Below, in pieces: positions 986-36,175 of a stretch of DNA of 46,229 nucleotides (within the stretch, counting starts at the first letter, position 1; each line of letters opens with the position of its first letter). The DNA lies in the NCBI GenBank assembly GCA_015296065.1, contig DVDU01000250.1:1-46229 (forward strand), in the 5' to 3' direction. The stretch comes from Oscillatoriaceae cyanobacterium M33_DOE_052. Lineage in GTDB: Bacteria > Cyanobacteriota > Cyanobacteriia > Cyanobacteriales > Laspinemataceae. The notes under the pieces are model-generated. The model made no database searches and had not been told where the DNA came from. It worked only from the letters and a program-made list of their open reading frames with translations. Position numbers and translations under genes: made by a program.

Positions 986-1050
986 AGAAACCGGGTTTCT
1001 TAACCAGGTCTTGGTGAAAATACCAAGATTATCGCAGAAACCCGGTTTCT
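986..1050. repeat. Small dispersed repeat of about 65 bp bounded by two AGAAACCCGGGTTTCT palindromes (MITE-like); copy 1
   Basis: The sequence is CAGAAACCGGGTTTCTTAACCAGGTCTTGGTGAAAATACCAAGATTATCGCAGAAACCCGGTTTCT. The same architecture recurs at 5939-6003 (inverted), 44232-44296, 32156-32220 and 13452-13523. Confidence 0.7.
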
Positions 1051-3598: not shown

Positions 3599-3632
3599 CA
3601 ACCCGGTTTCTCACAGAAACCGGGTTTTTTTT
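3599..3632. repeat. Paired AACCCGGTTTCT / AGAAACCGGGTTT palindromes followed by a T8 run. Likely an intrinsic terminator for the M23 gene; belongs to the ~65-bp dispersed-repeat family.
   Basis: The sequence caacccggtttctcacagaaaccgggtttttttt lies immediately after the stop at 3595. Confidence 0.55.
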
Positions 3633-3790
3633 AAAGGATTTGAGTTAAACTGGGGAAAAACATTTACTCACCATTCCCCTTCCCGCCGTTGCTTTGGGCT
3701 AAAGCCCTACTACGAACCTCTTTTCCCATCACCCCCATTCATCCTATGCCCATACCTCGCCGCGATCGCATTCAACCCCGCATCTCTTCC

Positions 3791-4054
3791 ATGCCCCGCC
3801 AGCAGTCTGAGGCAGCCACTCACCGCCAAATGTATCAACTTTTGGTAGAAAAACAGCGCTTGCTCCAAGAATTGCAACATTTAGAACAGCGTCGCTATGC
3901 CATTAACCAGCGGTTGGAGGGCATCGCCACCCAGTTAACTGATTTGGAATATGGCGCTGGACAGTTACAGCAAAAATCGGCTGTTGTTGATGGGCAAATC
4001 CCCGCCAGTGATGCCAATTCAATGGGATTTGAAACGATGTTTTTGGAATATTAA
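3791..4054 (+). CDS. Hypothetical coiled-coil protein of about 88 aa. The longer ORF starting at 3689 was rejected.
   Basis: MPRQQSEAATHRQMYQLLVEKQRLLQELQHLEQRRYAINQRLEGIATQL... has a heptad-like composition. It ends 8 nt before the Uma2 gene. Confidence 0.45.
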   Translation: MPRQQSEAATHRQMYQLLVEKQRLLQELQHLEQRRYAINQRLEGIATQLTDLEYGAGQLQQKSAVVDGQIPASDANSMGFETMFLEY

Positions 4055-4062
4055 GACGACTA

Positions 4063-4749
4063 ATGACCAAAACAACTATCGTTAAAGTACCGCCTTTAGA
4101 AAGTGGCGATCGTCTGACGCGCACCGAGTTTGAACTGCGCTATCACGCCGCCCCCGAAATTCACAAAGCCGAACTAATTCAAGGAGTAGTTTACTTGGCA
4201 TCCCCCGTGCGTGCGAACCGACATGGCGGCCCCCACGGCGTCATTATGGCTTGGCTAGGCGCCTATTGGATGGCGACTCCCGGCGTCGAACTCTACGATA
4301 ATGCCACCGTGCGTCTTGATGAAGAAAACGAGCCCCAACCCGATGCTTTATTACGCCTAGAACCCGCCGCCGGTGGCAACTCTGTCATTAGTGAAGATGA
4401 TTATATTGAAGGCGCCCCAGAACTGGTAATAGAAATTGCTGCCAGCAGTGCTAGTTATGATTTAAATGACAAACTTAATGTTTATCAAAGCCACGGCGTT
4501 AAAGAATACATAGTTTGGCAAGTTTATGAAAACCAACTCGATTGGTTTCAGCTTCAGCAAAACATTTATCTTCCTCTAAATGCAGATAGTAACGGCATTA
4601 TTCGCTCTCAAATATTCCCTGGCTTGTGGCTATCAGTAGATGGCTTACGCCAAAGAAACCGCGCCCAATTGCAGGCTGTTTTGCAACAGGGTTTGCAAAC
4701 ATCAGCCCATCAAGAATTTGTGGAGAAACTGGCTGGCTCTGGGGGATAG
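4063..4749 (+). CDS. Uma2-family endonuclease (DUF820, putative restriction-endonuclease-like)
   Basis: The motifs ELIQGVVYLASP, PELVIEIAASSASYDLNDKLNVYQSHGVKEYIVW and the overall pattern are typical of the abundant cyanobacterial Uma2 family. Confidence 0.8.
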   Translation: MTKTTIVKVPPLESGDRLTRTEFELRYHAAPEIHKAELIQGVVYLASPVRANRHGGPHGVIMAWLGAYWMATPGVELYDNATVRLDEENEPQPDALLRLEPAAGGNSVISEDDYIEGAPELVIEIAASSASYDLNDKLNVYQSHGVKEYIVWQVYENQLDWFQLQQNIYLPLNADSNGIIRSQIFPGLWLSVDGLRQRNRAQLQAVLQQGLQTSAHQEFVEKLAGSGG

Positions 4750-4781: not shown

Positions 4782-5024
4782 TTATTCATCATCTTTGCTA
4801 GCTTCCATTGCTTCTATAGCCAATAATAACTCTTCTTCTTGCTGCTCAAAATCCTCCTCGGATATATCTCCTAAATCAAAAGCTAGCTGCAGGGCTAATA
4901 ACTTTTTGTGCAGGTTTTCTGTTGAGTCTAGTTCAGCTTCGGCGCGTTCTAAGATTTGCTCGCCGATCCAGGCGATACCTTCTAGTGGGCCGGTGATGGG
5001 TAAGGTGAGTAAGCGTAATATCAT
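4782..5024 (-). CDS. gvpG: Gas vesicle protein GvpG
   Basis: MILRLLTLPITGPLEGIAWIGEQILERAEAELDSTENLHKKLLALQLAFDLGDISEEDFEQQEEELL closely follows the GvpG pattern (LLLLPvmGPl.gvvWIaeQI.ER...E.D..ENL.K.LL.LQL.FD.GeISEEeFE.QEE). The start was chosen at the internal Met because the upstream extension covers dispersed repeats. Confidence 0.7.
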   Translation of the reverse strand: MILRLLTLPITGPLEGIAWIGEQILERAEAELDSTENLHKKLLALQLAFDLGDISEEDFEQQEEELLLAIEAMEASKDDE

Positions 5025-5124
5025 ATGTTTGGGTGATAATGGGGAAGGCAGGTAAGGGCAAGGCAAGAGTGGGCTAAAGCCCAACTACTAACCTTTTTTT
5101 GGCTCAAGCCCAACTAAGAACCGA

Positions 5125-5862
5125 TTAACTGGTTTTAAATACAGCGAAGTTGAAAGGTGCGGTAAAATTATTATACCGGATGCGGAGGCGACTGTCAAAT
5201 AATTTATCCAGGGATTCTACTTGGGTGGCAAAGTGGGGTTCGTCATCCCAGGGGATTAAATAGGCGGCGTTGTAGATCATATTATCAGTGAGGGAGTCGC
5301 GCTCGACAATTTCCACCGCTAGGGGGTTGAGGGTGGCTTGAAATTGGGCGATAATTTCTTGACGATGGTGGGCGAGATGGCGTTCGATTTCTTGTCCGAT
5401 CGCGATCGTTTGCTCCATACTCAGAGTTGTCCCCGATAGCCGATCGCGCCTTGCCCGCAAGTCCTCATTGGCGGCTAAAATCAAATCCAGTTCCGCCTTT
5501 TCCTCCCAAAACACCTTTACCCCCACCTCCCGTCTCCCCTCCAACTTCTCAAACAGCTCATCCAACTTATCCCCATAAGGAATAGTCAACTGCTCCGCCA
5601 CCGCCTGCCAATTTGGCACCGTCGAACCAAATTGTAAAGGCAGTAAATAGGGATAACCCATTTGCATCGCCGCTTCCAGTACCTTTTCATGTCCCAACAA
5701 ATTGCGGCGACTAGCTAAATAACGCTCCTGTTGTGCCTGAGAATACAAAAAAGTAAACCCATCCACCACCCGCACTTGCACAGGTTGTCCATCCAAACCC
5801 AGCAAATCCAAAATATCGGGCTCTGATGGGAGAATGCCGTACAAATAAAAACCGTATGCCAT
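5125..5862 (-). CDS. gvpF: Gas vesicle protein GvpF/GvpL family
   Basis: The N-terminal MAYGFYLYGILP and C-terminal RLRIRYNNFTAPFNF hallmarks of GvpF/L are present. The length is 245 aa. Confidence 0.8.
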   Translation of the reverse strand: MAYGFYLYGILPSEPDILDLLGLDGQPVQVRVVDGFTFLYSQAQQERYLASRRNLLGHEKVLEAAMQMGYPYLLPLQFGSTVPNWQAVAEQLTIPYGDKLDELFEKLEGRREVGVKVFWEEKAELDLILAANEDLRARRDRLSGTTLSMEQTIAIGQEIERHLAHHRQEIIAQFQATLNPLAVEIVERDSLTDNMIYNAAYLIPWDDEPHFATQVESLDKLFDSRLRIRYNNFTAPFNFAVFKTS

Positions 5863-5938
5863 TCTTTAACTAAATTTGCTGCTGCATAATTGTACAATTA
5901 AGTCATTATTCACTTGTCCATAGTCCCTGGTGCGGATT

Positions 5939-6003
5939 AGAAACCGGGTTTCTGCGATAATCTTGGGTTCTCAACCGAAATTTGGTTAAGAAACCCGGTT
6001 TCT
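5939..6003. repeat. Copy 2 of the ~65-bp dispersed repeat (inverted orientation). It is followed by a 2.5x tandem repeat, caaggacaaaagaatccctacc, at 6021-6075.
   Basis: AGAAACCGGGTTTCTGCGATAATCTTGG...TTAAGAAACCCGGTTTCT is the reverse complement of the 986-1050 architecture. Confidence 0.7.
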
Positions 6004-6077
6004 GGGTTAGCCAAATGACTAAGGACAAAAGAATCCCTACCCAAGGACAAAAGAATCCCTACCCAAGGACAAATCCC

Positions 6078-9000
6078 ATGCGACCATTAGAATTATCTTT
6101 AGAAGGATTTACCAGTTTCCGCAGTCCCCAGCACCTAGATTTTTCCCAGATGGATTTATTCGTCATCACCGGTCCCACCGGTGCCGGGAAATCATCCATC
6201 TTGGAGGCCATGACATATGCACTATACGGCAAAACCACACGCTGTGGCAACCAAATCGGTGAATTAGTCTCACAGGGAGCCAAAAATCTCAAAGTTACCC
6301 TAGGCTTTGCCGTAGGAGAAGACATTTATCGCATCGCGAGGAGCTGGCGGAGTCGGGGCAAAACCACAGCTTCTACGGTAGTGCTAGAAAAGCGCGTTGA
6401 TAACAGTTGGGAAACTATCGAGGAAAAAGAACGCAGTGCCAATAAAGCTGTAGAAGACATTTTGGGGATGGATTTTGACACCTTCACGAGGGTAATTTTA
6501 CTGCCCCAAGGTGAATTTGACGAGTTTCTCAAAGGGGATACGAGCAAACGGCGGGAAATATTGCGCCAGTTAGCCGGTTTTGAGATATTCGAGCAAATGC
6601 GCAAACAGGCGGGAGAGCTGTCTAAGCTGCTGGAAAAAGAGCGGCAGGCGGCGGAAAGGCAGTTAGCCGAGTTAGAAGTACCACCGGCGTGGGAGGTAGA
6701 ACGGGCGAAACTGCAAATCACCGAGTTAGAAAACACTATCCCCAAATTACAAAATGCTGTGTGGGAAGCGCAACAACAGCTAGATGCAGAAGAAAGGCTA
6801 TTTGCCCAGTTAGAAAAACTGGCACAATTGGAAAAGCAACAACGCCAACTAGAGGCAGAAGCACCTAAAATCGCTGCTTTGGAAGCGAAACAACAGCGAG
6901 CCGAAACTGCGGCGAATTTGCAACCTCACTGGGTGCTGGTGCGAGAAGTGCTAGAGCAGTATCAAAATGCTACTATTACTGTGGCGGCCACGGCTGAGCA
7001 AGCGGCAAACACTGCGGCGGCTTTGGTGTCAGCAGAGCAAGGGTTAGAAAAGGCAAAAGCGGCACAAACGGCGGCGACACCAGGGATAATGGCGCGGGAA
7101 AAAGCGATCGCCACGGCACAAGTGCTAGAAGAGCAAAGGCAGCAGCTAGTGGCAGAAGTCAGCCGCAGCGAGCAAACGGCACGCAACAGCGCCACCGCTG
7201 CAGATACAGCCAAAAGACAATTAAAAACTGCGGAAAATAAAGTTATTGCGGCTGAGGAGCAAGCCAACCAAGCGGCAACCAAAATGCAAGCAGTGGCTCC
7301 GGGGGGAGAAAGGCTAGAAAACCTCAAACAAGTCATGCCATTGTTAGCGCAATGGGATTTTATCGCCAAACAAACACAAAAAAATCAGTCCCAGGCGGAA
7401 ACTGCCGATCGGGAACTCACCGTGGCGCGGCAAAATAGTCAGTTATGGCGGGCAAAAACCTTAACTGTAGAAATCGAGCTGACAAAATGCCGCGATATCT
7501 TAAAATCAGCCGAGGCAGCCAATTTGCAGGCGCAGTTGCAAAATCAAGCTGCAACATTACGTTCTAATTTAGCTGCCGGAGATACCTGTCCAGTTTGTGG
7601 CAATATTTGCTCCGACTTGCATCAGCTCCAGCTATTACCAGCGCCAGAAATGGTAGATATTGCCCCCCTGCAAGCTCGCCTAGAAACTGCAAACCGCACC
7701 TATCTTGATGCGCAACGCCGCGCCACTTTGGCGGAGGCATCTGTAGCAGACGCACAACGTCAGCAAACCGACAGTCAACAAGAATTAGCCGCTATTAAGC
7801 AGCGTTTGGAAGCAGCGGGTCAGGAGATAAGTGCAATTCTCCATCAGGATAAATGGGAATGCTCAGCATTACAGGGAGAATATCGACTATTACAAGCGCG
7901 GGAGGCTTCGTGGCGACAAGCGCAGATAGAACATCAAGAAGCATTGGCGACACTGAAGCAGGCGCAACAGTCACGAGAATTTGCTTTGCAACGTTGGCAA
8001 GAGGGGGAATTACGTCATCAAGAAGCTGCGCAAGTTTTGCAAATGCGGCAACAACAGCTCGCGGAATTGACGGCGAAAGTGTATGAGGTGACTGGTGGCG
8101 CTGCTTATGAAACTCTCAAACAAGCCTTAGAGCGGGAAAAGCAGCAATTACAAGCAGCTTTGGAGGCAGCAACTGCTACGGAGTCGAACCGTCGCGCCGC
8201 TGCTATTCAAGCAGAAACCTCTGCCACTCAGGCGAAAATTGCCCTGGATCATATTGCGGCGAAAAAACAGCAGTTAGAAACTGACTGGGAGCGGGAGTTA
8301 AATGTAGCTGGGTTATCTCAGGAGGAGTTTTTGACGGCCCAAGCATCTGGGGAAGAGCGCGCCGCTTGGCAAAAGGTAATTACGGCACATCGGGAACAGA
8401 GTTTGCAGCTAGTAACGCGGCTGGAAGATTTACGAGAAAATATTGGGGGGCGCCAAACAGATGCGGTAATTCTCGCTAGTCGCAGAGCCGCGAAAGAATC
8501 ATCTAAAACTCAGTTTGAGCAGGCGAATCAGCAAAAAAATGAGTTATCAGTTTGGGTGCAGTTATCGGAAACGCGGTTACAGCAAGCGGCGGATTTGCAA
8601 ACTCAGCTAGAAACTTTGTTGCAGCAGCAGGAAGTTTATCAGACTTTGGCGCAAAATCTGAAATCTACGGAGTTTCAGTCTTATATTTTGGAGCATTTGG
8701 AGGGGGAATTGGTGGCGAGGGCTACTTTGTTGTTGCGAGAGTTGACTGATGCCCGCTATGCTTTGGAGGTGGAAGATGGGGAATATTGGGTGGCGGATAA
8801 TTGGAATGGTGGGGAAAAACGCCGCGTGCGTACTTTGTCTGGGGGCGAGACTTTTGCCGCTTCGGTTTCTATGGCTTTGGCGTTGTCAGAAAAGTTGGCA
8901 ATGGGGGCGCAGTTGGGGAGTTTGTTTTTAGATGAGGGTTTTGGGACGTTGGATGTGGAAACTTTGGAAACGGTGAGTCAGGTTTTGGAGTCTTTGCGCC

Positions 9001-9119
9001 AACGATCGCGGGTGATTGGGGTGATTACGCATATTACGGCTTTAGCCGATCGGGCTCCCACCCAAATCAAAGTTTACAAATCTCCTCAAGGTTCCCATCT
9101 AGAGGTAGAAACTCTGTAG
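6078..9119 (+). CDS. sbcC: SbcC/Rad50-like SMC-family ATPase (DNA double-strand-break repair exonuclease subunit) with a zinc hook
   Basis: A Walker A motif GPTGAGKSS lies near the N-terminus. There is a long central coiled coil rich in A/Q/E. A CPVCG zinc-hook motif sits mid-protein. The C-terminus has the signature LSGGETF and the Walker B/D-loop LFLDEGFGTLD. The start was set at MRPLEL (6078) because the upstream part of the ORF overlaps dispersed repeats. Confidence 0.8.
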   Translation: MRPLELSLEGFTSFRSPQHLDFSQMDLFVITGPTGAGKSSILEAMTYALYGKTTRCGNQIGELVSQGAKNLKVTLGFAVGEDIYRIARSWRSRGKTTASTVVLEKRVDNSWETIEEKERSANKAVEDILGMDFDTFTRVILLPQGEFDEFLKGDTSKRREILRQLAGFEIFEQMRKQAGELSKLLEKERQAAERQLAELEVPPAWEVERAKLQITELENTIPKLQNAVWEAQQQLDAEERLFAQLEKLAQLEKQQRQLEAEAPKIAALEAKQQRAETAANLQPHWVLVREVLEQYQNATITVAATAEQAANTAAALVSAEQGLEKAKAAQTAATPGIMAREKAIATAQVLEEQRQQLVAEVSRSEQTARNSATAADTAKRQLKTAENKVIAAEEQANQAATKMQAVAPGGERLENLKQVMPLLAQWDFIAKQTQKNQSQAETADRELTVARQNSQLWRAKTLTVEIELTKCRDILKSAEAANLQAQLQNQAATLRSNLAAGDTCPVCGNICSDLHQLQLLPAPEMVDIAPLQARLETANRTYLDAQRRATLAEASVADAQRQQTDSQQELAAIKQRLEAAGQEISAILHQDKWECSALQGEYRLLQAREASWRQAQIEHQEALATLKQAQQSREFALQRWQEGELRHQEAAQVLQMRQQQLAELTAKVYEVTGGAAYETLKQALEREKQQLQAALEAATATESNRRAAAIQAETSATQAKIALDHIAAKKQQLETDWERELNVAGLSQEEFLTAQASGEERAAWQKVITAHREQSLQLVTRLEDLRENIGGRQTDAVILASRRAAKESSKTQFEQANQQKNELSVWVQLSETRLQQAADLQTQLETLLQQQEVYQTLAQNLKSTEFQSYILEHLEGELVARATLLLRELTDARYALEVEDGEYWVADNWNGGEKRRVRTLSGGETFAASVSMALALSEKLAMGAQLGSLFLDEGFGTLDVETLETVSQVLESLRQRSRVIGVITHITALADRAPTQIKVYKSPQGSHLEVETL

Positions 9120-30813: not shown

Positions 30814-31962
30814 CTAGCCCCGTAACTGCACAGGCATGAGTAAATGGGTCATTTTGACGCCACCGAGGGGGACGATGATTACTGGGGAATTAGCAGAATT
30901 TAGCTGCATGGAAATTTCGGTGGAGGGGAGGTTTTTTAACGATTCCATTGCATATTTGGCGTTGAAAGCGATATCTAGGCTGTCTCCAGAAATTTGGGCG
31001 GTCATGGATTCGCTACCGCTGCCCACATCGGCGGCTTCTACGGAGAGGGATAACTGCTGGGTTTCGCTGTCAATAATGAATTTCACGATGTCGTTTTTTT
31101 GGCTGGCCAAAATGGCGATGCGATCGAGTGCGCCGATGAGCTGGCGGCGGTCAACTGTGACCTGAATTTGGAACCGATCGGGCAGTAACTGGCGGTAAGC
31201 GGGGTATTGCCCCTCAATAGTGCGGCTAGTCAGGCGTTGGTCGGCCAGTTCAAACACTACTTGTCCTTGGTCCAGATGAAGATTTACCAATAGCGGTTGG
31301 TCAGAGGTGGTATTTTGTCTAATGCCAATCATCTTTTCCAATTCCCGCAAAGCCTTCGCGGGAATTGTCACCTCAAATTCCTCGTTAGAGTCAGTTTCAC
31401 TGGAATTCTCGGTTTCCACCACAGCCAAACGGTGTCCATCGGTGGCGGCAAATTCCAGGGTATCTGGTCCGAGGATCAGGTGAACCCCCGTCAACACTTG
31501 TTTGGTTTCATCGCTACTGGTGGCAAACACCGAACCGCGCAAGCCTTCCAAGAGAGCTTCTGCACTCAGTTGCACAGATTGGTCATTTTCAATCTCTGGC
31601 ATAGATGGGAATTCTTCCGCACTCATCCCCCGGACTTGATACCGTCCTGACTGGGAAGTGAGGTTAACCGTGTTCTCGCTGGTGTCATTGTCGATCGTCA
31701 CTTCACCGGCTGGCAATCTAGCGGCAATATCGTGCAGCAGCTTGGCGGGGATGGTAATTTCGCCAGCAGCCTCCACCTTCGCCGCAAAAGCCGTGCGCAG
31801 TCCGAGGCTGAGGTCAAAAGCAGTTAATTCTACCTGCTGGGAGTCAGTATCGGCTTTAACCAGAATATTGCCTAACACTGGTTGTGCAGGACGGGAGGGA
31901 ACGGCGCGACTGACAAAGGAGAGGTGGCTGTTCAGGTCGCTTTGGTTGCAGAGAAATTTCAT
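30814..31962 (-). CDS. dnaN: DNA polymerase III beta subunit (sliding clamp)
   Basis: MKFLCNQSDLNSHLSFVSRAVPSRPAQPVLGNILVKA and the three-domain clamp length of 382 aa are diagnostic. The ORF extension up to 32061 was rejected. Confidence 0.9.
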   Translation of the reverse strand: MKFLCNQSDLNSHLSFVSRAVPSRPAQPVLGNILVKADTDSQQVELTAFDLSLGLRTAFAAKVEAAGEITIPAKLLHDIAARLPAGEVTIDNDTSENTVNLTSQSGRYQVRGMSAEEFPSMPEIENDQSVQLSAEALLEGLRGSVFATSSDETKQVLTGVHLILGPDTLEFAATDGHRLAVVETENSSETDSNEEFEVTIPAKALRELEKMIGIRQNTTSDQPLLVNLHLDQGQVVFELADQRLTSRTIEGQYPAYRQLLPDRFQIQVTVDRRQLIGALDRIAILASQKNDIVKFIIDSETQQLSLSVEAADVGSGSESMTAQISGDSLDIAFNAKYAMESLKNLPSTEISMQLNSANSPVIIVPLGGVKMTHLLMPVQLRG

Positions 31963-32084
31963 CAGGTGTGATCTAGTTATGAAGGTTGGGGCGGCTATAG
32001 TGCCTCCGGCGTCCGGCATCTCGCCGGAGTTGCCTTGAGGAGCGCTGCTACGCACGCCCATCTGGGAGGGTATATTTTAGCACT

Positions 32085-32310
32085 GCTGTGGGGTGGATGT
32101 GCGCCAGCATTTGGGGGGATGCCTGTGGAAAAACTGTGGAAAACTGCCCCAATTTGTCCCAGAGGAGAAACCCGGTTTGTTCACCAAATCCTCCTGATCA
32201 AACCTAGATTGTCGCAGAAACCCGGTTTCTGGCGGCGGTGAATTTTCCACAGCAAGGGGGGTATTTTTCCACAAAAAATGGGGTGTTTTTTCACAGAAAG
32301 GGGGCGATTT
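32085..32310. other. oriC: Chromosomal replication origin (oriC) core: a DnaA-box cluster between dnaA and dnaN
   Basis: TGTGGAAAA occurs twice (32114-32122 and 32125-32133). TTTTCCACA occurs twice (32233-32241 and 32255-32263). TTTTTCACA occurs once (32277-32285). Weaker boxes are near 32085-32098. A ~22-nt periodic GGGG...T5CCACA...A-tract pattern is present. An AT-rich stretch, tatattttag, lies at 32061. Confidence 0.7.
32156..32220. repeat. Copy of the ~65-bp AGAAACCCGGTTTCT-bounded dispersed repeat, inserted within the DnaA-box cluster
   Basis: AGAAACCCGGTTTGTTCACCAAATCCTCCTGATCAAACCTAGATTGTCGCAGAAACCCGGTTTCT. Confidence 0.6.
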
Positions 32311-32364
32311 CCTGTTTTAGCTGCTTTTGTTAGTGCGGTTGGTGCGGTAAATGGGGAGGCGATA

Positions 32365-33756
32365 CTAACGTGGCGCCTGACGGCGATCGCCACTACGAGC
32401 TTTCAGAGCATCCTCGATCTGGCGGAGCTGCTGGGCAAACTCCGGCTCGGCGTGGTGGCGCTGGGCGACTTTTTCACAACTATAGAGGACGGTGGTGTGG
32501 TCTTTGCCGCCAAACTCTTCCCCAATTTTCGGCAAGCTCAAATCTGTGTGCTGGCGCATTAAATACATACCAATTTGCCGCGCTTGGCTGATTTCCCGGC
32601 GGCGAGAATTGCTCTTGAGGTCTTCGACAGATATGCCAAAGGTTTCCACTACTACGGCCATTACCGCCTCGGGACTGGTGCCAAACTGGGGGGTTTGGGG
32701 TTCTAAAATCGGGGCAATGTTGGCCACAGTCATGGGTAAACCGGATATGGAGATATAGGCGATCGTGCGAATCAAAGCCCCCTCTAGTTCCCGAATGTTG
32801 GAGGTGTAGCGTCCGGCGATGTACTCGATCGCCTCTCGCGGCAAGCGCATATTTTCATACTCCGCCTTTTTTTGCAAAATCGCCATCCGCGTTTCCAAGT
32901 CGGGAGCCTGGATATCAGCAATCAAACCCATTGAAAACCGGGAAGTCAACCGCTCCTGCAAACCCTTAATTTGATTGGGAGGCCGATCGGCAGCCAATAC
33001 CACTTGCTTACCCGCCTCATGCAGAGTATTAAACGTGTAGAAAAACTCCTCTTGGGTGTATTCCTTCCCCTCGATAAACTGGATATCATCCACTAACAGC
33101 ACATCCGCCGCCCGGTAATGCTCCCGAAAGCCCTGCATCCCGTCCTTGCGAATCGCCGCAATCAGGTCATTAGTAAACTGTTCCGTGGAAACATAAAATA
33201 TCTTGGCCTCGGGGAAAATCTCCAGGCGATAATGTCCGATCGCCTGCATCAAATGCGTTTTCCCCAACCCCACCCCGCCACACAAAAACAAAGGATTAAA
33301 CTCCCGTCCCGGCGACTCCGCCACCGCCAGAGACGCCGCATGAGCCATCCGGTTATTCGCACCCACCACAAACCGAGAAAAAGTGTACTTAGGATTCAGT
33401 TCTGTGGGACGATGGGAGTGACTGGCGCCGTTGACCATCCCCGAAACATCAGAAACCTCCGAGGAAATAGGCTTCGGCCAGAAATATTCCCCATCCGCCA
33501 CATCCCCAGTCGCCGTGGTAATTTCAATTTCTATCCGCTGCCCCAACAAGTCCTGCACCACATCAGCAATGGTTTTCACATAATATTTTTGCAACCAATT
33601 CCGGGCAAACGGGTTAGGAGTGCAGATCGTCAAGCAGTTATTTTCCAGGCGTTCCGCCCGAGCGGTTTTAATCCAAGTTTCAAAAGTGGGGCGGCTCAGC
33701 TGCAGCTGTAGCCGCTCCAATACTTGATTCCAGAGACTTTCCAGCAGAATTTGCAC
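32365..33756 (-). CDS. dnaA: Chromosomal replication initiator protein DnaA
   Basis: The AAA+ Walker A motif [10 protein letters not shown], the DnaA signature region and the C-terminal DNA-binding helix ([23 protein letters not shown]) are present. The length is 463 aa. Confidence 0.95.
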
Positions 33757-35917: not shown

Positions 35918-36175
35918 AATCACGCCGTGCCCTTTCGTGGGGTTGGTCACGGCGTGATTAATATTATTTCTCACATGAATTAAGCTAATGATGCTGTGCC
36001 TTTTCGTGGGGGTGGGCACGGCGGGATTAAAGTTGTTTGTCATATGAATTAAATTAAGGATGCCGTGCCCCTACGGTTGGCTATTGGTAGGGGCACGGCG
36101 TGATTGAGATTATTCGTCACATGAATAACATTGACGTAGCTGTGCTACTACGGGTGCAATTAACCGATATCAACC
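35918..36175. repeat. Tandem array of about 3.5 units of roughly 70 nt. Each unit has a 12-13-bp perfect hairpin built on a CACGCCGTGCCC / GGGCACGGCGTG core, followed by a conserved AT-rich box TCACATGAATTA.
   Basis: The units fall at about 35918-35989, 35990-36058, 36059-36130 and a degenerate unit at 36131-36175. The stems are aatcacgccgtg/cacggcgtgatt and gccgtgcccctac/gtaggggcacggc. The array lies between the convergent def and MVP genes. Confidence 0.6.

What the first reader, a model, noticed from the sequence alone, without database searches (positions are those of the whole stretch)
4782..5862. Isolated gvpF-gvpG pair without structural gas-vesicle genes
GvpF/L and GvpG are recognisable, but no gvpA/C/N/J/K/V/W lies within 5-40 kb. 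On the side where gvpV/W usually follow, the locus abuts a Uma2 endonuclease and a coiled-coil gene. On the other side it abuts sbcC. The gvpF-gvpG spacer carries two copies of the GGGCTAAAGCCCAACTA motif. This is either a relic of a dismantled gas-vesicle cluster or a pair of accessory gvp genes encoded away from the main cluster.
Basis: partly seen in the sequence, partly recalled or inferred. Interest (0 to 1): 0.5.

Follow-up and report, generated by a model that had tools for sequence, protein, structure and literature searches.

The report
Distal half of split gas-vesicle cluster

Summary
gvpF (5125-5862, minus) and gvpG (4782-5024, minus) are real. No gvpA/C/N/J/K lies in the 46-kb window.

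Two points in the finding need correction:
- The "coiled-coil gene" (3746-4054, plus) is gvpV. It sits in its usual position, convergent on gvpG. The Uma2 gene (4063-4749) separates the two here, but it is absent from the closest relatives.
- The spacer motif is a dispersed intergenic repeat, with 6 copies in the window.

The window is a contig of the MAG Oscillatoriaceae cyanobacterium M33_DOE_052. The same MAG encodes GvpA, GvpN, GvpJ and GvpK on another contig, with a GvpC-like gene in the matching JGI contig. In the finished chromosome of the near-identical [Phormidium] sp. ETS-05, gvpF-G/V lies about 0.48 Mb from gvpA-C-N-J. Oscillatoria sp. SIO1A7 shows the same split.

All three window genes are under purifying selection, with dN/dS of 0.10, 0 and 0.18.

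About a quarter to a third of related gvpF loci show the same layout.

Verdict: an ordinary split gas-vesicle gene set, not a relic. Interest is low.

The parts
5125..5862 (-). gvpF (245 aa), GvpF/L-family gas-vesicle assembly protein
   Evidence: Pfam PF06386 6e-60 and NCBIfam NF052351 354.9 bits against a cutoff of 350. PDB 6L5D 5e-86 and 4QSG 6e-79. NCBI HIK12633.1. dN/dS 0.10 against L087. It differs from the full-cluster GvpFs at 1 of their 69 invariant alignment columns (R for N at residue 188).
4782..5024 (-). gvpG (80 aa)
   Evidence: Pfam PF05120 7.6e-24. NCBI HIK12632.1 'gas vesicle protein GvpG'. There are 13 synonymous and 0 non-synonymous differences against L087.
5025..5124 (-). 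gvpF-gvpG spacer (100 nt). It holds two copies of the dispersed repeat GGCT[A/C]AAGCCCAACTA at 5072-5087 and 5101-5116.
   Evidence: 6 copies in the window, 0.06 expected. No significant RNA structure. Spacer length varies: 2 nt in JSC-12, 46 in L003, 192-194 in L087 and ETS-05.
3746..4054 (+). gvpV (102 aa, coiled coil, conserved MPRQ..EA motif and C-terminal F.T..LEY), convergent on gvpG
   Evidence: jackhmmer finds homologues next to gvpG in full clusters. Family members are named GvpV or gas vesicle protein, and this protein is HIK12630.1 'gas vesicle protein'. Position and orientation match alr2246 (gvpV) of PCC 7120 (PMC7204071). dN/dS 0.18.
4063..4749 (+). Uma2-family gene lying between gvpV and gvpG, present only in this lineage; not part of the gvp system
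   Evidence: Pfam PF05685 1e-30. It is absent from the same spacer in L087 (126 nt between the two genes) and in ETS-05 (173 nt).
5170..5198 (-). Perfect sigma-70 consensus (TTGACA-17-TATAAT) inside the 3' end of gvpF, about 145 nt upstream of the gvpG ATG. A possible internal promoter for gvpG.
   Evidence: 12 of 12 matches. Present only in the window and L087, not in L003, L010 or L034. Function is inferred only.
5914..6007 (.). Copy of a dispersed element of about 95 nt with two palindromes AGAAACC(C)GGGTTTCT, in the gvpF-sbcC intergenic region. Not gvp-specific.
   Evidence: Other copies are at 986/1036 and 44232/44282, with a single palindrome at 32216. In L087, copies sit in the G|V and F-G spacers.
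3600..3626 (+). Terminator-like hairpin after the M23 peptidase gene. It implies that gvpV has its own promoter.
   Evidence: 12-bp stem followed by a T run. Function is inferred.

Best explanation
The locus is the distal part of a gas-vesicle (gvp) gene set that is physically split in this genome. gvpF and gvpG form a two-gene unit on the minus strand, and gvpV converges on it from the plus strand. A Uma2 gene now lies between gvpG and gvpV. The structural and remaining assembly genes (gvpA, gvpC, gvpN, gvpJ, a small ORF, gvpK) lie on another contig of the same MAG. In the finished chromosome of the near-identical strain ETS-05, gvpA-C-N-J lie about 0.48 Mb away; gvpK was not seen there.

Shown here: the genes are intact, conserved and under purifying selection, and the complementary genes exist in the same genome.

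Inferred from published work: GvpF acts in trans as the primary binder or chaperone of the shell protein GvpA, and GvpG then takes over from GvpF. On that basis the pair supplies the 'GvpA-chaperoning' step for shell protein made from the distant gvpA operon. Physical linkage is not needed for this.

Not shown: whether the organism actually forms gas vesicles.
For: 1. Family assignment of F, G and V.

2. Same genome. The window proteins are HIK12630, HIK12632 and HIK12633 of Oscillatoriaceae cyanobacterium M33_DOE_052 (also named Planktothricoides sp. SpSt-374), on a contig of 46,229 bp. GvpA (HIK09779.1), GvpN (HIK09777.1), GvpJ (HIK09776.1) and GvpK (HIK09771.1) belong to the same organism. 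N, J and K lie on a 67,654-bp contig. Its JGI counterpart L094 carries gvpA-C-N-J-76aa-PIN-Uma2-gvpK-Uma2.

3. ETS-05 chromosome CP051168.1. gvpF-G|V lies at 3,415,106-3,416,807 (L102). gvpA-C-N-J lies at 3,893,641-3,896,589 (L091).

4. Oscillatoria sp. SIO1A7, whose GvpF is 69% identical. F-G|V lies on contig 1 (L003) and A-C-N-J-K on contig 3 (L088).

5. Selection. dN/dS is 0.10 for gvpF, 0 for gvpG and 0.18 for gvpV against the 90-94% identical contig L087. GvpFs from F-G-only loci match 98.9% of residues that are invariant in full-cluster GvpFs.

6. The layout recurs. Among 84 related loci, 16 had F(-G) only with at least 4 kb upstream, 5 had K-F(-G) only, 1 had J-K-F-G, and 30 had a full cluster. 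Geitlerinema PCC 7407 has A-C-N-J-K with no F-G adjacent (L092).

7. Trans function is plausible. gvpABC, gvpNJKFG and gvpVW of PCC 7120 on three plasmids give gas vesicles in E. coli (PMC7204071). A GvpA-GvpF-GvpG interdependent subnetwork has been described (PMC11445434).
Against: - No expression or phenotype data exist. ETS-05 was classified as Phormidium, and its genome paper does not mention gas vesicles.
- In ETS-05, gvpK was not found within 7 kb after gvpJ, and it is not in the 90% cluster of the MAG's GvpK. That strain's set could therefore be incomplete.
- gvpW was not identified.
- The two MAG contigs are linked by binning and annotation, not by a closed assembly. The ETS-05 chromosome supports the link.
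Confidence: 0.9

Rival explanations
1. Relic: gvpF-gvpG are decaying leftovers of a gvp cluster whose structural genes were deleted.
For: No gvpA/C/N/J/K occurs in 46 kb. Repeats and a Uma2 gene have invaded the intergenic spacers. The related strain was classified as Phormidium.
Against: The reading frames are intact. dN/dS is 0-0.18. Residues invariant in full-cluster GvpFs are retained in 98.9% of comparisons. gvpA, N, J and K are present in the same MAG, and gvpA-C-N-J in ETS-05.
Confidence: 0.03
2. Co-option: the F-G(-V) module has acquired a role independent of gas vesicles, for example a chaperone for another client. That role would explain why it persists alone.
For: A deep clade of F-G-only loci includes the finished genome of Leptolyngbyaceae JSC-12. 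For that clade I could not show structural genes elsewhere.
Against: In all three F-G-only genomes that could be checked (this MAG, ETS-05, SIO1A7), the structural genes exist elsewhere. The sequence constraints are the same as in full clusters. No alternative partner gene is conserved next to the pair other than gvpV or gvpK.
Confidence: 0.05
3. Ordinary contiguous operon: the rest of the cluster lies just beyond the left end of the window.
For: Only 3.7 kb of sequence lies to the left of gvpV.
Against: The left flank holds plus-strand non-gvp genes, including an M23 peptidase. In ETS-05 the same flank continues for 9 kb without gvp genes, and the gvpA locus is 0.48 Mb away. Neither the 10 kb upstream nor the roughly 7 kb downstream of the ETS-05 gvpA-C-N-J genes holds any window gene.
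Confidence: 0.02

Closest known systems
Cyanobacterial gvp cluster gvpA-C-N-J-(X)-K-F-G with convergent gvpV/W (Anabaena sp. PCC 7120, Anabaena flos-aquae, Microcystis aeruginosa)
   Same: The gene families match (F, G and V here; A, C, N, J and K elsewhere in the genome). The order F then G is the same. gvpV lies convergent on gvpG, as alr2246 does in PCC 7120.
   Different: The set is broken between gvpK and gvpF and dispersed, about 0.48 Mb apart in ETS-05. gvpK is further detached from gvpJ in the MAG by PIN and Uma2 genes. A Uma2 gene separates gvpG from gvpV. gvpW was not found.
GvpF of Anabaena PCC 7120 (PDB 6L5D) and Microcystis aeruginosa (PDB 4QSG)
   Same: Full-length sequence homology, with E-values of 5e-86 and 6e-79.
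   Different: The window protein scores only just above the NCBIfam equivalog cutoff (354.9 against 350) and sits on a long branch of the GvpF tree.
Split gvp sets in Oscillatoria sp. SIO1A7, [Phormidium] sp. ETS-05 and Geitlerinema sp. PCC 7407
   Same: In SIO1A7 and ETS-05 the F-G(|V) unit lies away from the A-C-N-J(-K) unit. PCC 7407 shows only the A-C-N-J-K half, with no F-G adjacent.
   Different: The flanking genes differ between lineages. Only the window lineage has Uma2 between G and V.

Membership tests
GvpF/GvpL (PF06386; NCBIfam NF052351 cyanobacterial GvpF) | Full-length match above the curated cutoffs | tested here: met
   Pfam 203.7 bits against a cutoff of 23.6. NCBIfam 354.9 against 350, a narrow pass.
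GvpF/GvpL | Homology to solved GvpF structures | tested here: met
   PDB 6L5D 5e-86 and 4QSG 6e-79, by sequence only. The fold was not modelled.
GvpG (PF05120) | Match above the Pfam gathering score, and position directly after gvpF | tested here: met
   84.1 bits against a cutoff of 30.6. The NCBIfam gas_vesic_GvpG model was not met (18 against 85).
GvpV (no Pfam or NCBIfam match found) | Homology to proteins encoded next to gvpG, on the opposite strand, in complete cyanobacterial gvp clusters and named GvpV | tested here: met
   jackhmmer hits from 1e-30 to 1e-43 in L008, L011, L013, L017, L022, L049, L053 and others. UniRef gives 'Gas vesicle protein GvpV' for cluster members, and NCBI gives 'gas vesicle protein' for HIK12630.1. 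Direct comparison with the M. aeruginosa GvpV sequence was not possible.
Complete gas-vesicle gene set | gvpA plus gvpN, gvpJ and gvpK (and gvpC) present in the same genome | tested here: met
   HIK09779.1 (A), HIK09777.1 (N), HIK09776.1 (J) and HIK09771.1 (K) are from the same organism. A GvpC-like ORF lies in L094.
Complete gas-vesicle gene set | gvpW present | not tested
No conserved gene precedes gvpV in the Leptolyngbya- or Oscillatoria-type loci.
Functional gas-vesicle system | Gas vesicles (aerotopes) formed by the organism | not testable with these tools
   The ETS-05 genome paper does not mention gas vesicles. Thermal-mud Laspinema and Planktothricoides strains do show gas vesicles by TEM (PMC10117791).
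Uma2 (PF05685) | Pfam match above cutoff | tested here: met
   106.8 bits against a cutoff of 27.

The most novel reading that the evidence does not exclude
The break between gvpK and gvpF is a recurrent architecture, not an accident. On this reading, F-G(-V) is an autonomous and separately regulated 'shell-protein chaperoning' module. In some lineages, such as the Leptolyngbyaceae JSC-12 clade, it may persist without any gvpA and serve another client.
Probability: 0.12. Interest if true: 0.45.

Novelty: new member of a known kind. Interest (0 to 1): 0.15.

Why it matters
This mainly matters as a caution. An 'orphan' gvpF-gvpG pair on a contig does not mean the gas-vesicle system is degraded. 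In many filamentous cyanobacteria the gvp set is split, most often between gvpK and gvpF, so the capacity to form gas vesicles must be judged genome-wide.

The split also mirrors the published GvpA-GvpF-GvpG interaction subnetwork. And it shows that benthic thermal-mat Oscillatoriales classified as Phormidium carry most or all of the gvp genes, under selection.

Tried and rejected
- The genome-contig scan with GvpF returned only one locus, L003.
- Literature searches found no description of isolated gvpFG pairs or split cyanobacterial gvp sets. PMC412153 (Mlouka 2004) is not held.
- Rfam gave no hit in the window.
- The RNA fold of the F-G spacer was not significant, with z = -0.17.
- A search for shared upstream motifs between gvpF, gvpV, gvpA and gvpK promoters found only the dispersed palindromic repeat.
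- A search for a conserved gene upstream of gvpV (a gvpW candidate) found none in the Leptolyngbya- or Oscillatoria-type loci.
- Exact look-ups of the ETS-05 GvpV (P0121), the window GvpG and the window PsbP did not reach the ETS-05 chromosome.
- The 'not in the collection' result for GvpF and GvpG was my coordinate error: I cut off the start codon. It was corrected.
- GvpN of JSC-12 and ETS-05 did not appear in the top 120 of the GvpN search. That is uninformative for JSC-12.
- I considered and rejected a contiguous cluster outside the window, a relic, and a regulatory role for the spacer motif.

Full report
**What is at the coordinates**

Window 5125-5862 (minus strand) encodes a 245-aa GvpF.
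- Pfam PF06386 gives 6e-60.
- The NCBIfam cyanobacterial GvpF equivalog scores 354.9 bits against a cutoff of 350.
- The solved GvpF structures 6L5D and 4QSG match at 5e-86 and 6e-79.

Window 4782-5024 (minus strand) encodes an 80-aa GvpG, with PF05120 at 7.6e-24. Public gene calls start it at the ATG, not at the upstream TTG.

sbcC (6078-9119, +) is divergent from gvpF. A Uma2 gene (4063-4749, +) converges on gvpG. tblastn and phmmer with GvpA, C, N, J and K seeds find none of them in the 46-kb window.

Members of these clusters are named "Gas vesicle protein GvpV" by UniRef. NCBI names the window protein itself "gas vesicle protein" (HIK12630.1). The position matches alr2246 (gvpV) of Anabaena PCC 7120, which lies downstream of gvpG on the other strand (PMC7204071).

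The locus is therefore gvpF-gvpG plus gvpV.

The Uma2 gene between gvpG and gvpV is found only in this lineage. The 90-94% identical contig L087 has just 126 nt between the two genes there, occupied by a small repeat element. The ETS-05 chromosome has 173 nt.

**The spacer motif**

GGCT[A/C]AAGCCCAACTA does occur twice in the 100-nt gvpF-gvpG spacer. It also occurs at 3697, 20309, 20359 and 41313, giving 6 copies against 0.06 expected. The spacer RNA folds no better than shuffled sequence (z = -0.17).

Spacer length ranges from 2 to 194 nt among relatives. The motif is a dispersed genomic repeat, not a gvp element.

**Where the window comes from**

Exact-sequence look-ups identify the window as the 46,229-bp contig of the MAG "Oscillatoriaceae cyanobacterium M33_DOE_052". 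UniRef calls it Planktothricoides sp. SpSt-374. Its proteins here are GvpV HIK12630.1, GvpG HIK12632.1 and GvpF HIK12633.1.

Its closest isolate is [Phormidium] sp. ETS-05. The GvpV is 98% identical, and the strain has a finished 6,286,783-bp chromosome from thermal-mud biofilm (PMC7650686).

**Is the pair really orphaned?**

It is not.
- **Same MAG.** The exact GvpA sequence P0308 carries accession HIK09779.1 from the same organism. GvpN (HIK09777.1), GvpJ (HIK09776.1) and GvpK (HIK09771.1) of the same MAG lie on a 67,654-bp contig.
- **The second contig.** Its JGI counterpart L094 reads gvpA, gvpC-like, gvpN, gvpJ, a 76-aa ORF, PIN, Uma2, gvpK, Uma2.
- **ETS-05.** In chromosome CP051168.1, gvpF-gvpG|gvpV lie at 3,415,106-3,416,807 (L102). 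gvpA-C-N-J lie at 3,893,641-3,896,589 (L091). The two are about 0.48 Mb apart.
- **Oscillatoria sp. SIO1A7.** Its GvpF is 69% identical. It has F-G|V on contig JAAHFN010000001.1 (L003) and gvpA-C-N-J-K on JAAHFN010000003.1 (L088).
- **Geitlerinema sp. PCC 7407.** It shows the complementary half, A-C-N-J-K with no F-G adjacent (L092).

**Are the genes alive?**

Against L087, gvpF has 28.5 synonymous and 11.5 non-synonymous differences (dN/dS 0.10). gvpG has 13 and 0. gvpV has 11 and 8 (dN/dS 0.18).

Across 16 F-G-only loci, 98.9% of residues match at the 69 alignment columns that are invariant in 30 full-cluster GvpFs. The relic reading is therefore rejected.

**How common is the layout?**

I examined 84 related gvpF loci, taken from one genome hit, four loci from contig look-ups and 80 metagenome or MAG contigs.
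- 16 had F(-G) only, with at least 4 kb of upstream flank.
- 5 had K-F(-G) only.
- 1 had J-K-F-G.
- 30 had full clusters.

In a neighbour-joining GvpF tree, the F-G-only loci fall into several clades. One is a deep clade that contains the finished genome of Leptolyngbyaceae JSC-12. For that clade I could not determine whether gvpA exists elsewhere.

**Mechanism**

*Shown:* an intact, selected F-G unit with a convergent gvpV, and the structural genes at a distance.

*From the literature:*
- GvpF is the primary binding partner of the shell protein.
- GvpG then supersedes GvpF. The three form an interdependent subnetwork that has been interpreted as chaperoning (PMC11445434).
- gvp genes of PCC 7120 supplied on three separate plasmids (ABC, NJKFG, VW) still give gas vesicles in E. 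coli (PMC7204071).

*Inferred:*
- The window locus supplies this step in trans.
- A terminator-like hairpin after the M23 gene (3600-3626) suggests that gvpV has its own promoter.
- A perfect TTGACA-17-TATAAT lies inside the 3' end of gvpF (5198 to 5170 on the minus strand). It is present only in this lineage and could drive gvpG across the repeat-expanded spacer.

*Not shown:* no expression or phenotype data exist.

**Caveats**

- ETS-05 shows no gvpK within 7 kb after gvpJ, and its GvpK, if any, is not in the 90% cluster of the MAG's GvpK.
- gvpW was not identified.
- The MAG contigs are linked by binning, although the ETS-05 chromosome supports the link.

**Verdict**

This is an ordinary gas-vesicle gene set in a split arrangement. 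The "pair" is really a trio, and the spacer motif is unrelated to gvp. Novelty is limited to the recurrent K|F split, which I did not find described in the papers searched.

Noticed in passing
window 36170-38815 (-): An 881-aa homologue of the eukaryotic Major Vault Protein in a cyanobacterial contig. Pfam gives Vault 5e-71, MVP_shoulder 1.5e-51, and Vault_2, Vault_3 and Vault_4.
   Followed up: no
window 30814-33756 (-): dnaN (30814-32061) and dnaA (32365-33756) lie about 27 kb from gvpF, so the contig may include the chromosomal origin region. In ETS-05 the genes beyond sbcC differ, which indicates a rearrangement.
   Followed up: no
window 986-1050, 5914-6007, 44232-44296, 32216, 3600-3626; L087: A dispersed element of about 95 nt with two palindromes AGAAACC(C)GGGTTTCT 50 nt apart. 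One half forms the terminator-like hairpin after the M23 gene. In L087, copies occupy the gvpG|gvpV and gvpF-gvpG spacers.
   Followed up: partly
window 6021-6064: An exact 22-nt tandem duplication, AAGGACAAAAGAATCCCTACCC x2, just upstream of the sbcC start.
   Followed up: no
window 5170-5198 (-): A perfect sigma-70 consensus inside the gvpF coding sequence, built from the F-D and Y-N-N codons. It is specific to the window/L087 lineage.
   Followed up: partly
L094 10315-13100; window 4063-4749: In this MAG, Uma2 genes lie inside both gvp loci. One lies between gvpG and gvpV in the window. In L094 one lies on each side of gvpK, the upstream one next to a PIN gene. The copies are only distantly related or not detectably similar, so they are not recent duplicates.
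   Followed up: partly
L102 6761-9801: In the ETS-05 chromosome, sbcC is called as two overlapping ORFs of 507 and 534 aa. This could be a frameshift or an error of the Nanopore-based assembly.
   Followed up: no
L091 13101-13331; L094 10092-10322: A conserved 76-aa ORF lies directly after gvpJ. Its position resembles the small ORF between gvpJ and gvpK in L006.
   Followed up: no
L079; L049, L053, L055, L072; L061, L080, L083: Other rearranged gvp layouts occur among relatives. These include G<- N-J-K-F -> with A-C 3 kb downstream (Nostocales type), N-A inverted against J-K-F-G, and K-J-N / G<-F / A scattered over 14 kb in a Trichodesmium- or Okeania-like contig.
   Followed up: no
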